This document shows positions 24,001 through 30,000 of a stretch of 64,000 bases of DNA, one piece after another. This DNA is from an uncultured Pseudomonadota bacterium (GTDB taxonomy: Bacteria > Oederibacteriota > Muellerivitia > Muellerivitales > Muellerivitaceae). The position numbers were made by a program. Each line of letters opens with the position of its first letter. Within the stretch, counting starts at the first letter, position 1. The stretch lies in NCBI GenBank assembly GCA_963770835.1, contig CAVYRH010000010.1, positions 96,001 through 160,000 on the forward strand. The letters are read 5' to 3'.

Positions 24001-27000
24001 GGATGGCGGAGCCTGCAAAAACAACATGCTCATGCAATTCCAAGCCGACATTCTCAAAGTCAAAATCAACCGCCCCAAAGTGGTGGAAACCACCGCCATG
24101 GGCGCAGCCTTCCTGGCGGGATTGCAGATTGGTTATTGGAAGAATAGTGCTGAAATCCAAAAGATCCGTAGAGTGGATAAAATGTTCCAACCAAAAATGA
24201 AGGACAACATGAGAAAGCATTTGTGGGGCGGTTGGAAAGCAGCGATTCAGCATGTGTTAACTAAGAATTAATTGTGATTTCTATTTTTGAGTGATTTTTC
24301 AAGAACGGCTAATATTTCATTTTCCTCAACCGTCGTCGGTTGGACATTCAAACAGGTTTTTCTTCCCACCACTTGCGGATTAAAGACGATCACCTTCACC
24401 AATGTTTCCTCCGAGCCTTGTGGAATGATGTGCAATTGAAAATCGGCTGTATATTCCACAGGCCTTCCCAACCAATCCGTGTACACCGTTGATTTGCAAA
24501 CCGGGGTTTGATTGCAGCTGATGTAAACGTCATTTTCGTTCACGGGATTTTTAAATATTTTTATCCCGTCTGGATGGTGGTCGCCCTTCCAATACAAAGT
24601 AAACAGCGCTGGAAAATTGGACGGATTTTTGAAAATATTTTGAGGATCATCTTTAAAAATTTCGTTGATGGCCTTTTGAACCTGATAGACCGATCCTTTA
24701 AGGACCACTTGAGTCGGGAAGGGTTGGGCCGGAAGATTCGTATTTACTGCCAATTGGCCACATCCGGAAAGCGCTAAAACCATTAAAAATAGCCAGTTTT
24801 TGAAGGCTTTTACGGTCCGAAAAGACTCCAAAATCCACCTCCCCTTCCTAGAATCCCTGAAACCGGCTTCATTTTACACTGTCTTGAGGTTTCAGCCCCC
24901 ATGTAAATTCCCCTATTTTTCAACAAAATCCGCTTGACGGCATCCGTAAGTGGGCCAATAATGGCGCGAAGTGGGAAAAAGTGGGTTAAAGTGGTGAAAA
25001 GTCAAAAACCCTTTATTTTGCTGGGAAAAGTGGAGACTTAAGTGTTCCGAGGGATCTTTCACAATTCATTGGATGAAAAGGGCCGGACCAGCATCCCGGC
25101 GCGGTTCCGCGAACAAATCCGTGACGGCCATGAAACACCCCTGGTTTTGACCCTGGGTTTCGACCAATGCCTTTTTCTGTACCCCATGGACGCTTGGAAA
25201 AAGATCGAGGAGAAGCTGGCCTCCCTGGACACCTTGAACGCCGAGGTCCGCCAGTTCCAGCGCACGATCCTCAAAGCTACCGACGAAGTGGAGATGGACC
25301 AGCAAGGACGAATTGTGATTTCGCCGGTGTTGCGGAAGGAAGCGGGCATCAACAAGAGCGTGGTGGTCGTAGGGATGCTTCACCGCATCGAAATTTGGGA
25401 CAAGGAAAAATACGAGAACTACCACGCGCAAACGACTCAATCACTCGAACTTTTAGGGCAAAAGCTCTCTGACAAGGGCATTCAATCATTAACGCTTTAA
25501 CAAGGAACGGTGGGCGACCCTGAAAGGCGCCCAATCCGGTCCCACGGTTCCTTCGGAGGTTGGCAGATGGAAATCGGAATCGAGATAAAGGAAAGGTTCT
25601 CCTTGGTCCACGTGAACGGGGACATGAGTGAGGACGACCTTGGGAAACTGGGGAATGCGATCGAAACATTGATGAAGAAAGGCTATCTGCACGTGGTTTT
25701 GGACTTGGCCGACGTTTCGTTCATGAACGCCAAAGGGTTGGGGGCCCTGGTCAATCACTGGACCCATGTGCGCTTCAAGAGGGGGGATCTCCGGATCGTG
25801 GGGCTCAACAGCCGCCTCATGCATCTTTTCCGGGTCATGGGCGTGGACGCCCTGTTCGACGTCTACCAGGACGTCGGGGAAATGATGGAGAAAACCGGGC
25901 GGATGCCAGCTGTCGCCTAACGACAGTTCGCAGTCGGCAGCCGACAGTTCGCAGTTTTGAAAACTTATAACGAATAACTTAAAACCGAAACTCCCGGAGG
26001 GGAAAGTGGCCGTTTACACAACCAACGAAACCATCACCGTGCTGCGATTGTCAGGTGACGTCAGCATTTCCGACATGGACGCCCTGCTCCGGAAAATGAC
26101 GGATTTGGTTTTGGAGAACAAAAACAAGGTCGTCTTGAATTTCCGCCAGGTGAAGCACGTTTCACTCAACGCCATCTCGAAGCTGGCCGAACGGAACCAG
26201 CGTTTCAAGGGCCTTGGCGGGGAAATCAAACTGGCCGGGCTGATTCCCTACGTGGCCAACCTCTTCAAACTGGTCGGGGCTTATTCCAGCTTCGACGTGG
26301 TTTTGGATGAGGAAGAAGCCGTCGCCCGCTTTGAAAGCTGAACAAGTACATTTACCGGTTCTTTTAAAGGAAACGGTGGAATGGTTGTCCCCCCCTCCTG
26401 ACGGGGTCGTGCTGGATTTGACGGTCGGGATGGGCGGCCACGCGCAGGAGCTGTTGAAACACCTGCCGCAGGGCCGCTTGGTTGGGTTGGACCAGGATGT
26501 CGATGCCCTTCAACACGCCGGCCGAGCACTCAGGAAAGACCCACGGGTCTCCCTGTTCAAGGCTAACTTCGCCGACCTCCTGTGGGTGCTGAGAGAACTC
26601 TCGATCAGCGAGGTTAACAGCGTGTTGATGGATATCGGCGTATCCTCACTACAATTAGACACGGCGCAACGCGGCTTTTCCTTCAGCCAGGATGGCCCCC
26701 TGGACATGCGCATGGACCCCCACGCGGGCCACTCGGCCGCCTGGGTCGTGAATACCTACCCGGAAGAAAAGCTCTCCAAAGTCATCTTTGAATTCGGCGA
26801 GGAGCCCAAAGCCCGCGCCCTGGCCCGCGCCATCGTCAAGGCCCGGGGAGAAAAGCACATCGAAACAACCGGCGAGCTCGCCGCCCTGGCCCTGCGGGTT
26901 TGTGGAAAGCCCCGTTCCAAGCGGGGGGAGCATTCCCGGCACCCGGCCACCCGCCTTTTCCAAGCCATCCGCATCGAAGTCAACCGCGAGCTGGAGGTCC

Positions 27001-30000
27001 TTGAAAAAGGCCTTAAAACAGCCCTTTCCTTCTTAAAGCCGGGCGGCCGCATCGCCGTCATCACCTTTCATTCGCTGGAAGACCGCATCGTTAAGCAGTT
27101 CTTCAAAGCTGAAGCCACTGATTGCCTTTGCCCCCCGGACATTCCCCAATGCGTGTGCGGCCATAAGGCCTCGCTCAAGATATTGACCGGAAAGCCGGTG
27201 ACGGCCTCCGAGGCGGAAGTGCAGCAAAACCCCCGGGCCCGAAGCGCCAAGCTGAGGGTGGCGGAGAAACTTCAGTCGACAGTCGACAGTTGGCAGCCGA
27301 CAGCTTAAAAGGCGAAGAGGAACCATGCAGACAACCGACACGCTGAATATCGGGATGAAAAAGGCGGGGGAAATCCTCGATGCGGGCCTTTTTTGGCGCG
27401 GCAACCTGGCCAAAGCCGTCAGGCGCCGGGATTTCAAAGGGACCCTCTGGGGTGTCCTGGCCCTGAGCCTCTTCCTCTTCTTCTATGTCTGGCAGCATAT
27501 GCAGGTGGTCAAGCTCGGTTACGAGGTGCAAGGGCTCAAAATGGAAAAACAACAGCTGACCAACCAGTATTACTACCTCAGGTACCAGATGTACGACGTG
27601 AACAGCCTGACAAGGGTGGAACAGGTCGCGAGGGAACAATTGGGGATGGTGACGCCCCGCGGGGACCAGATCGTGATCCTGGATGACGGCGCGCATTTTT
27701 ACCCCAAGTGGTTTTCGTTTTGGACCGCTACCATGAAAAAAACGGATAAGCCATGAGCGGATTGAAAAATTACTCCCGAATGCAAAAGCGCCTTTTACTG
27801 CTGGAGGCCTGTGTCCTTTGCGCCGTGTTTTGTGTGGAAGGCCGCCTAGTCTACCTACAGGTGTTTAAACACACGGAATTCCGCCAACTGGCCTACCACC
27901 AGCAATACACGCCCCGGGAAACCAGTCCCTCCCGCGGCGTCATCGAGGATAGGTCGGGGGCCTTGCTAGCGGTGAACATCGACCTCTTTAATGTTTGCGC
28001 CCATCCCAGCCAGATTACGGACAAGGCTTCCACGGCGGCGGCCCTATCCCGGGCCTTGGGACAACCTTACAGCGAGGTGCTTTCCAAGATTTCCGGCGAC
28101 AAACCCTTTGCTTGGGTGGCCCGCCAAGTGCCCTATGAAAGATCAGAGGCGGTGGAAAGCTTGAAACTCCAGGGCATCGAGGCTTCGCGAGAGGAAAGGC
28201 GCTTTTATCCCGACCATGAGATGGCCGCCCACGTGCTGGGGTTCGCCGGTATCGACAACCAGGGATTGAGCGGGTTGGAACGTTCCTACGACGGAAATTT
28301 GACCGGAAAAAAAGGATTCGTCATGGCCGAGCGGGACGCACGGGGCCGTTTGGTCTTGGCCGACAACAAGTCCGTGAAGGCCAGCGTGGACGGATTGAAC
28401 GTCGTCACCACGCTGGACAAGACTATCCAGCATATCGCACAGGTCGAGTTGGAAAAGGCCTTCGAGAAATACCGCTGCAAGGCGGCCTCCATTGTGGTAA
28501 TGGACCCCCATACGGGTCAAATCCTGGCCCTGGCCAACTACCCCAATTTCGACCCGAATCATTTCAACGCGGTATCCGGGGAATGCTGGAAAGACCGCGT
28601 GGTGAACGACGAATTCGAGCCAGGCAGCACTTTCAAGCTGATCGCGGCGGTGGGAGCCCTGGAAGAGGGCGTGGTGAACGAGGACGATAAGTTTTTCTGC
28701 GAAAACGGGGCTTATCACACCGATTACGGCCGCACCGTGACCGACCACGAGAAGTACGGCTGGCTGACCTTCCGGGAAATCTTCGGCTATTCCAGCAACA
28801 TCGGCATGGTGAAGGTCAGTACCAAGCTCGGGAAAGAAAATCTCTACCGCTACGCCAAACGATTCGGCATCGGGGACCTGACGGGCATCGACTTGCCGGG
28901 CGAGGCACCCGGCAAATTGAGGCCCTTGGACAAATGGAGCGGCTTGTCGCTGACCTCCATCCCCTATGGCTACGAGGTCTCAACGACTCCCATCCAGATG
29001 CTCACCGCCTATGCCGCCATCGCCAACGGCGGCATCATGATGAAGCCCTATGTGGTCAAGGCTTTGGAAACCTCCGACGGGAAGGTAGTCAAGGAATTCG
29101 AGCCCGAAAGAATCCGGCGGGTTTGTTCGCCCCGGACCGTGAAGCGCATCACCGAGATGATGAAATGGGCCGTGGAAAAAGGGACGGGCACGGCGGTGGC
29201 CCTTCCGTCCTACTCCATCGCGGGAAAAACAGGCACGGCCTATAAGTTCATGAACGGCAAGTATTCCAAGTACAACTATGTTTCCTCCTTTATTGGTTTC
29301 GTGCCGGCCGAGAACCCGAAATTCGCCATTTACGTTTCATTGGACGATCCCAGGGGCATTTACTGGGGCGGCTACACGGCCGGACCGGTTTTTAAAGAAG
29401 TTGCCAAACGGGCCTTGGTCTATGACCTGGTCCCGGGTGAGAACCAAGTGCCGGAGATGGGTCTGGCCCAAGAACAACATTCCGTTCCCGCTTTCACGGG
29501 TTTGACTCCCGAACAGTGCAAATGGCTGGCCCAAGAGGACGGCCTTAAAATCAAATTTAACGGCAAGGGTGAGCGCGTGGTGTCGCAATCCCAACCCGCC
29601 GGGGAAGCGCTGCAATCGGAAAACAACAAACCGGCCAAGCTGTTTTTGACCCTGGGCGAACCCCAAGGGGAAAACGCCAAAGGTGTCATGCCGGAATTAA
29701 AGGGAAAGACTAAACGCCAGGCGCTGGCCCTTTTGGCGCCCTTGGGGATGCACGTGAATTTCAAGGGCGAGGGCGTGGTGCGGTCGCAGTTTCCGCCCGC
29801 GGGCCGGGCGGTCCAAAATGGAACGCCCTGTGACCTGAGCTGTGAGGTGCCCGTGGCCAATATGGCTTCCGCCGGCAGGGAGGGGAATTCATGAAATTCC
29901 TGGCCCTGTCCAAAAAATTGAAAGGCGCGAAGGTGGTAGGAAAGGGAAACCCGGTTCTGAGCGGCATCTCCGAAAACTCCAAAGCGACCCAACCGGGAGA

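What a model noticed while it worked through the whole genome (the two positions that open the first line are those of the whole stretch)
25042..27308. A non-phosphorylatable STAS subfamily fixed between mraZ and rsmH across a phylum
One STAS gene (two in this family) sits between mraZ and rsmH at the head of the dcw cluster, and its D-S-x-G phosphorylation loop is replaced by a conserved His-hydrophobic motif. I read it as a kinase-independent ligand or protein sensor that tunes cell-division and wall gene expression. New would be an undescribed conserved member of the dcw cluster.
Evidence so far: mraZ-STAS-rsmH in 23 of 23 loci from 8 families of the phylum; His51 in at least 90% of 17 aligned, no Ser at the acceptor position; mraZ near STAS in at least 26 of 31 order genomes and 1,099 of 84,378 overall. 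Search 152 found no paper.
(Added by a program. Inside this text positions count along the whole contig: contig position 96,001 is position 1 of the stretch shown here. "Call 12" and the like, gene names such as g00115 and contig names such as C1 are that model's own, and its searches are not shown. The text may have been shortened before it was handed on; [...] marks where a part breaks off. The agent that wrote the report below was given it as the finding of a first reader that could run no searches.)

Follow-up and report, generated by a model that had tools for sequence, protein, structure and literature searches.

The report
Serine-less STAS genes heading division operon
Two small STAS-fold genes that lack the usual phosphorylation serine sit between mraZ and rsmH at the head of the cell-division operon, a slot held by related genes in several bacterial lineages; they likely act as kinase-independent protein-binding regulators, possibly of the division repressor MraZ.

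Summary
Real and wider than stated, but two details fail. Two STAS genes (25567-25920, 26006-26341; dN/dS 0.05-0.11) lie between mraZ and rsmH in a complete dcw cluster. Phylum: 75 of 87 readable junctions, 17 of 23 families, so not fixed. In metagenomes, 61 of 71 serine-less homologues found without context have both neighbours (9 cut by contig ends); 0 of 9 serine-bearing STAS do. M. xanthus has an annotated anti-sigma antagonist gene in the slot (MXAN_5613), whose RNA tracks mraZ. His51 is not the family mark (68/75 inside, 22/71 outside) and sits at RsbV Tyr53, a protein-contact residue; 3 of 75 keep the serine. The gene persists in genomes with no RsbW-type kinase or SpoIIE match. Many members end in Ala-Ala (49/111 vs 0/111 MraZ), a known ClpXP degron. 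Best reading: a protein-binding regulator controlled by abundance, likely acting on MraZ; partner untested (complex prediction unavailable). No paper found. This scan noted the arrangement before in at least 17 other genomes.

The parts
24934..24962 (+). sigma-70-type promoter of the dcw operon (predicted)
   Evidence: 10 of 12 consensus, 17-nt spacer (1 found, 0.8 expected by chance, so weak alone); same layout upstream of mraZ in most relatives
24969..24995 (+). three MraZ boxes (GTGG at 10-bp period; a fourth at 24950)
   Evidence: sequence; box definition GTG(G/T) with six spacer nt in PMC12957436 (passage); present in STAS-plus and STAS-minus relatives
25042..25500 (+). mraZ, 152 aa
   Evidence: TIGR00242 147.9 bits
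25567..25920 (+). STAS1, 117 aa; loop F-M-N-A-K-G (no acceptor Ser, no His); C-terminal Ala tail; family-f1-only second copy
   Evidence: PF01740 1e-13; 21 of 26 f1 loci; dN/dS 0.05-0.11; falls on the serine-less side of the tree but not sister to STAS2; ends in Ala in 18 of 21
26006..26341 (+). STAS2, 111 aa, GTG start; loop H51-V-S-L54-N-A; orthologue of the single dcw STAS of other families; last 11 nt overlap the rsmH start
   Evidence: PF01740 4e-12; AlphaFold pLDDT 91, top fold match SpoIIAA 1thn_B TM 0.86; dN/dS 0.06-0.11
26331..27308 (+). rsmH (mraW); likely start TTG at 26331 (alternative ATG 26307)
   Evidence: TIGR00006 351 bits; an in-frame TTG at -11 or -14 from the STAS2 stop in 20 of 25 f1 loci
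27325..27756 (+). ftsL; then ftsI 27753-29894, murE, murF, mraY, murD, ftsW, murG, murC, murB, ddl, ftsQ, ftsA, ftsZ (to 45029)
   Evidence: PF04999 and PF00905; ORFs, genes after ftsI named by eye from their translations

Best explanation
The two genes encode serine-less STAS proteins of a family that holds the mraZ-rsmH slot in several lineages; they likely work as kinase-independent protein-binding regulators made together with MraZ, with MraZ the most likely partner. Shown: position, purifying selection, fold, loss of D-S, independence from RsbW/SpoIIE matches, stop/start overlap with rsmH, Ala-rich C-termini, and (for the M. xanthus slot gene) RNA that tracks mraZ. Inferred: the old kinase-docking face (His51, Tyr82, Glu62-Arg63 region) now binds a protein of the operon head; the phospho-switch is replaced by control of abundance, in many lineages by ClpXP turnover through a C-terminal Ala-Ala; this adjusts MraZ repression of the downstream division genes. 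In this family the two copies appear to have split the features: STAS1 keeps the Ala tail, STAS2 keeps His51 and the coupling to rsmH. Odds: protein-binding and kinase-independent about 0.7; MraZ as the partner about 0.35.
For: Slot: 75 of 87 phylum junctions; 61 of 71 serine-less metagenome homologues with both neighbours, 9 more with one side and the other cut, versus 0 of 9 serine-bearing STAS. Face: His51 aligns with RsbV Tyr53, which hydrogen-bonds RsbW (PMC7340262 passage). Kinase independence: dcw STAS is the only PF01740 match in G001 and G004 (93%, 90% complete); no PF13581 match at 1e-9 and no PF07228 match in G001, G004, G070 (99%), G097 (94%), G075 (89%); kinase present without the gene in G043, G018, G074, G014. 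Tail: Ala-Ala end in 49 of 111 STAS vs 0 of 111 MraZ, 7 of 111 RsmH of the same loci; 48 of 69 serine-less vs 1 of 34 serine-bearing homologues end in Ala; 34 of 2441 long ORFs in the own genome; Ala-Ala is a ClpXP degron (PMC7142297 passages). Link to MraZ: MXAN_5613 lies between mraZ and rsmH and correlates with mraZ (log r 0.73 over 14 values, 0.75 over 18) more than rsmH (0.12, 0.42), at 3-5 times the rsmH level; on C. crescentus prey mraZ (+1.41) and it (+0.66) rise while ftsL falls (-1.18) (supplement rows). STAS domains as non-kinase protein inhibitors or DNA-repressor modules have precedent (VapS, CapS; PMC13373217 passages).
Against: Sequence-similarity mirror favours RsmH over MraZ (partial r 0.53 vs 0.13; confounded by shared phylogeny), and the STAS stop lies within -14 to +5 nt of an rsmH start in 60 of 73 phylum loci. 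No MraZ surface marks STAS-bearing genomes beyond one weak column (Ala101; 8 negatives). The window's STAS2, f3 and families f14-f23 lack the Ala-Ala tail, so turnover cannot be the universal switch. Most STAS-bearing genomes do have an RsbW-type kinase (76 of 99 genomes overall), and the kinase-free family f3 has the most divergent STAS, placed among canonical STAS in the tree. RNA correlation of adjacent genes is expected from position alone. MXAN_5613 was matched by position, size and annotation, not by sequence. Kin are not independent in any of the counts.
Confidence: 0.35

Rival explanations
1. The STAS protein is an accessory subunit or regulator of RsmH (16S rRNA m4C1402 methyltransferase), made in coupled amounts, in the way MlaB serves MlaF.
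For: Stop/start overlap or near-abutment with rsmH in 60 of 73 phylum loci and -4 overlaps in the Omnitrophica-like metagenome loci; partial mirror correlation 0.53 with RsmH.
Against: Hydrogenedentes-like loci overlap mraZ instead and lie up to 265 nt from rsmH; mraZ and rsmH themselves overlap when the STAS gene is absent, so overlap is the operon's habit; M. xanthus slot-gene RNA is 3-5 times rsmH and tracks mraZ; no RsmH column clearly marks STAS-bearing genomes.
Confidence: 0.17
2. It binds a protein encoded elsewhere in the dcw cluster or genome (for example a divisome or wall-synthesis component) and sits here only for co-expression under MraZ control.
For: Conserved charged surface (Glu62, Arg63, Arg68, Asp73, Lys75; weighted 0.80-0.88, though partly selected by the search patterns); no positive evidence for either neighbour; degron-like tail fits a cell-cycle-timed factor.
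Against: Always placed directly between mraZ and rsmH rather than beside any other dcw gene (61 of 71); lost at least twice (3 changes on the RsmH tree) with the cluster head otherwise intact.
Confidence: 0.2
3. It is a constitutive pseudo-substrate that blocks an RsbW/SpoIIAB-type kinase or anti-sigma factor, like a serine-to-alanine SpoIIAA.
For: Closest solved structures are SpoIIAA in complex with SpoIIAB; the Asp23 equivalent is Asp in 57% (weighted) and Gly91 is kept; most genomes have such a kinase; 3 members keep N-S-T-G.
Against: Kept in five genomes of four families with no kinase or SpoIIE match; the own genome's only strong RsbW-type domain has a serine-bearing STAS 2.4 kb away; SpoIIAA's helix-2 glycine is replaced by Glu62 in 80%; no kinase gene in any locus head; dcw promoter is housekeeping type.
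Confidence: 0.13
4. It is a small-molecule or metal sensor that uses His51.
For: His51 in 68 of 75 phylum members; SpoIIAA binds GTP through this loop (PMC8256260, part 1 read).
Against: His in only 22 of 71 metagenome members, F/Y/R in 44; absent from STAS1, f3, f12; no second conserved His or Cys among columns above 55%; the position is a protein contact in RsbV.
Confidence: 0.1

Closest known systems
SpoIIAA / RsbV anti-sigma-factor antagonists (PF01740, TIGR00377; PDB 1thn, 1th8, 6m36)
   Same: Stand-alone ~110-aa STAS fold (TM 0.86 to 1thn_B); profile match E 5e-18 to SpoIIAA; STAS1 passes the TIGR00377 cut-off (59.7 vs 53.45).
   Different: No D-S-x-G (Asp 0/75, Ser 3/75); no kinase, phosphatase or sigma gene in the locus head; lives in the dcw operon; STAS2 below TIGR00377 cut-off (36.7); Glu-Arg on helix 2; Ala-Ala tail.
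CapS and VapS (CapK/CapS, VapKSC; PMC13373217, passages read)
   Same: STAS domain used to control a repressor's DNA binding or to inhibit a partner protein instead of an anti-sigma factor.
   Different: Both keep an absolutely conserved Ser/Thr and have a dedicated kinase; CapS is fused to a wHTH domain.
MlaB (PMC7367683, abstract start in search listing only)
   Same: STAS protein serving as accessory subunit of an operon neighbour.
   Different: ABC-transporter context; only a weak match (NF033618, 19.5 bits vs cut-off 90).
Canonical dcw head mraZ-mraW(rsmH)-ftsL-ftsI (PMC12957436, PMC8871954 passages)
   Same: Gene order, sigma-70 promoter and MraZ boxes are all standard.
   Different: One or two extra genes between mraZ and rsmH; neither paper contains the word STAS in its main text.

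Membership tests
STAS domain (PF01740) | Profile score above gathering cut-off and STAS fold | tested here: met
   51.2 and 46.2 bits vs 22.6; model pLDDT 91, TM 0.86 to SpoIIAA (STAS2 only)
SpoIIAA/RsbV partner-switch antagonists | Phospho-acceptor Ser in D-S-x-G | tested here: not met
   Leu54 / Ala55 in the window; Ser 3 of 75, Asp 0 of 75 in the phylum
SpoIIAA/RsbV partner-switch antagonists | Cognate RsbW/SpoIIAB kinase and SpoIIE-type phosphatase in operon or genome | tested here: not met
   None in the locus head; none matched in G001, G004, G070, G097, G075; present elsewhere in most other genomes
SpoIIAA/RsbV partner-switch antagonists | TIGR00377 / TIGR02886 cut-off | tested here: inconclusive
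   STAS1 passes TIGR00377, STAS2 does not; neither passes TIGR02886
SpoIIAA/RsbV partner-switch antagonists | Binds an anti-sigma factor and frees a sigma factor | not testable with these tools
Multi-phylum serine-less dcw STAS family (this report) | Position between mraZ and rsmH predicted by sequence alone | tested here: met
   61 of 71 both sides, 9 one side, 1 neither; 0 of 9 serine-bearing controls
Multi-phylum serine-less dcw STAS family (this report) | One clade apart from canonical STAS | tested here: inconclusive
   Quick tree of 109 rows x 112 columns: canonical group needs 2 changes, f3 members fall on the canonical side, fork support 85; careful search unfinished
   68 of 75 in phylum, 22 of 71 in metagenome loci, 63% weighted over 111
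ClpXP C-terminal Ala-Ala degron substrates | Ala-Ala-COOH and ClpXP-dependent turnover | tested here: inconclusive
   49 of 111 end Ala-Ala; window STAS1 ends V-A, STAS2 has no tail; turnover not testable here

The most novel reading that the evidence does not exclude
This family is the missing cofactor of MraZ: an ancient, serine-less STAS anti-repressor kept at the head of the dcw cluster from FCPU426, Omnitrophota and Hydrogenedentota to Myxococcus, in which the phospho-switch has been traded for ClpXP proteolysis, giving these bacteria a dedicated input into cell-division gene expression that can be tested at once with MXAN_5613.
Probability: 0.25. Interest if true: 0.85.

Novelty: new variant of a known kind. 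Interest (0 to 1): 0.64.

Why it matters
The dcw cluster is among the most conserved and most studied operons, and what modulates MraZ is open: a 2026 structure paper ends by calling for cofactors or signals to be identified (PMC12957436, passage). A conserved extra gene in the mraZ-rsmH slot across several deep lineages, with a slot gene expressed in the model organism M. xanthus (MXAN_5613), makes that question directly testable by one deletion and one pull-down. It would also add a STAS class controlled without phosphorylation.

Tried and rejected
Complex prediction of STAS2 with MraZ and RsmH: tool not available, so no partner verdict. RNA runs for the window: none was listed, no evidence either way. 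A context-free scan of named genomes for the whole family was not obtained: the one genome scan returned 8 loci, all with FCPU426/Goldiibacteriota or unnamed titles, so outside-phylum context rests on unnamed metagenome contigs. Fusion search (8000 candidates scored): two singletons, MraZ-STAS (P0359) and STAS-RsmH (P0360); both look like read-through or frameshift errors and were not counted as evidence. Relocated copy in STAS-less genomes: no alignment match in G006, G012, G017; best match in G043 is a serine-bearing STAS; G074 matches not read. Idea that STAS1-less relatives keep a STAS1 remnant: not above shuffles. Rfam: no match in the window. ESM Atlas: only generic STAS clusters. Partner-specific columns in MraZ/RsmH: nothing convincing. 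M. xanthus mutant fitness: not found; PMC11804543 supplements are RNA-seq tables, and the supplements of the barcoded-transposon preprint 10.64898/2026.08.28.747804 are closed and may hold data for MXAN_5613. Literature searches found no description; subscription papers are not held.
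Full report
Observation. The window holds a complete dcw cluster from mraZ (25042-25500) to ftsZ. 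Between mraZ and rsmH lie two ORFs that pass the Pfam STAS cut-off: STAS1 (25567-25920, 117 aa) and STAS2 (26006-26341, 111 aa). They are 23% identical to each other. Both are under purifying selection against six or seven relatives (dN/dS 0.05-0.11, one pair saturated). The STAS2 model is confident (pLDDT 91) and its best fold match is SpoIIAA (TM 0.86). Record titles of loci carrying the same kind of gene name candidate division FCPU426 and Ca. Goldiibacteriota, from which I infer the phylum.

How fixed is it? To avoid selecting on the STAS gene I searched 99 phylum genomes separately for mraZ and rsmH and read the junctions. Of 87 genomes with both genes on one contig, 75 have a STAS gene between them (three of these broken by a frameshift or stop: G051, G056, G080) and 12 do not (8 read as sequence, 4 from coordinates). 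Four more show the gene with one neighbour at a contig end; 8 are unreadable. That is 17 of 23 families. The 12 include G043, the only other family of the same order (97% complete). An alignment search found no match in G006, G012, G017; the best match in G043 is an ordinary serine-bearing STAS. On an RsmH tree the STAS-less state needs 3 changes (2 forced by strong branches). So 'fixed' is too strong. STAS1 occurs only in the window's family, in 21 of 26 loci.

The motif. Against SpoIIAA His51 aligns with the aromatic residue of F-M-D-S-S-G, Ser53 with the Asp and Leu54 with the acceptor Ser. Among 75 full-length phylum members His is in 68, Asp in 0 and the acceptor Ser in 3. In RsbV the equivalent of His51 is Tyr53, three residues before Ser56, and it hydrogen-bonds RsbW (PMC7340262, passage). 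His51 is therefore on the partner-binding face.

Beyond the phylum. A profile search of 1.84 billion representatives and a homologue search gave many serine-less stand-alone STAS proteins; the few with names are from Thermodesulfobacteriota, Nitrospirota, Desulfobacteria, Omnitrophica and Hydrogenedentes. Of 80 loci, 71 lack Ser/Thr at the acceptor: 61 have mraZ upstream and rsmH downstream, 9 have one neighbour with at most 151 nt of contig on the other side, 1 has neither. The 9 with an acceptor Ser have neither neighbour (three of them with about 2 kb on both sides). Nearest named proteins: Hydrogenedentes 38, Omnitrophica 22, phylum members 10, Desulfobacteria 1; this is similarity, not assignment. 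His occupies position 51 in only 22 of the 71 (Phe 19, Tyr 14, Arg 11), so the His is a lineage trait. [quoted passage not shown] I could not obtain that protein's sequence. A quick tree separates serine-less from canonical STAS except for family f3, with weak support; STAS1 falls on the serine-less side but is not sister to STAS2.

Kinase independence. An RsbW-type domain (PF13581, E<=1e-9) is matched in 76 of 99 genomes, but in 0 of 5 f3 genomes, all of which carry the dcw STAS, and not in G070, G097, G075. No SpoIIE match was found in the five tested. In G001 and G004 the dcw gene is the only STAS match. Conversely G043, G018, G074, G014 have the kinase and lack the gene. Caveats: the genomes are 89-99% complete, and f3 members have also lost His51 and Glu-Arg. 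The promoter upstream of mraZ is sigma-70-like with MraZ boxes in both STAS-plus and STAS-minus genomes (read by eye), so the protein is unlikely to drive this operon through an alternative sigma factor.

What replaces the switch? 49 of 111 row-matched STAS proteins end in Ala-Ala, against 0 MraZ and 7 RsmH of the same loci; 48 of 69 serine-less against 1 of 34 serine-bearing homologues end in Ala. The tail holds where no start codon overlaps the stop (Hydrogenedentes-like loci), so overlap does not explain it. Ala-Ala-COOH is a ClpXP degron (PMC7142297, passages). It is missing from the window's STAS2, whose last codons carry the rsmH start, and from families f3, f12 and f14-f23; STAS1 ends in Ala in 18 of 21. 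Turnover control is thus a likely but not universal feature, and is inferred.

Partner. For MraZ: in two M. xanthus RNA-seq sets MXAN_5613 follows mraZ (log r 0.73, 0.75) more than rsmH (0.12, 0.42) and is 3-5 times as abundant as rsmH; with C. crescentus as prey mraZ and it rise while ftsL falls. For RsmH: stop within -14 to +5 nt of an rsmH start in 60 of 73 loci and a higher partial mirror correlation (0.53 vs 0.13), both confounded. Two singleton fusions look like errors. I commit to a protein-binding regulator (about 0.7) and MraZ as the likeliest single partner (about 0.35).

Literature. Searches listed no paper describing a STAS gene in the dcw cluster; one search found 0 papers for MXAN_RS27200/MXAN5613. 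Word searches within PMC12957436 and PMC8871954 gave 0 'STAS'. Seen: passages of PMC7340262, PMC13373217, PMC12957436, PMC7142297, PMC8871954, PMC8316039 and preprint 10.64898/2026.08.28.747804; part 1 of 5 of PMC8256260; supplement rows only of PMC6791715 and PMC11804543; listing only of PMC7367683. The MXAN tags and two paper ids were recalled and then confirmed by the calls. The scan's own notes hold 17 similar findings (8 shown); they are unchecked and not independent support.

Verdict. A real, apparently undescribed, multi-lineage member of the dcw cluster head: a known fold with its defining switch removed. It is less fixed and less His-defined than first stated, broader in range, and testable in M. 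xanthus. Interest 0.64; new variant of a known kind.

Noticed in passing
window 25921-25958: Two copies of a 12-mer, 21 nt apart, between STAS1 and STAS2; 6 exact copies in the genome against about 0.5 expected; similar letters after STAS1 in G065 and at the rsmH end. Probably a lineage-specific intergenic repeat.
   Followed up: partly
L024, L014, L020 (G044, G046, G058), between mraZ and STAS2: Three relatives lacking STAS1 share an intergenic stretch above all 200 shuffles in each pair, but it does not match STAS1 coding DNA above chance. Possible cis element.
   Followed up: partly
G000:C3:321453-324144: An ~800-aa ORF with an RsbW-type kinase domain followed by a serine-bearing STAS gene; ORFs of similar size with this domain occur in most families of the phylum.
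   Followed up: no
G070 (99% complete): 13 STAS matches but no RsbW-type kinase match at 1e-9 and no SpoIIE match.
   Followed up: no
L028 (G051), L026 (G056), L066 (G080): The dcw STAS gene is split by a frameshift or stop; assembly error or decay not distinguished.
   Followed up: no
L038, L039, L041 (G021, G022, G024): Members with H-I-N-S-T-G, i.e. a serine at the acceptor position, in families with 2-5 RsbW-type kinases per genome: possible regain or relic of phosphorylation.
   Followed up: no
L150, L151, L158, L161, L163, L167, L171: A metagenome lineage with a 288-434 nt gap between mraZ and the STAS gene; its STAS is the nearest tree neighbour of STAS1 (support 86). Gap content not examined.
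   Followed up: no
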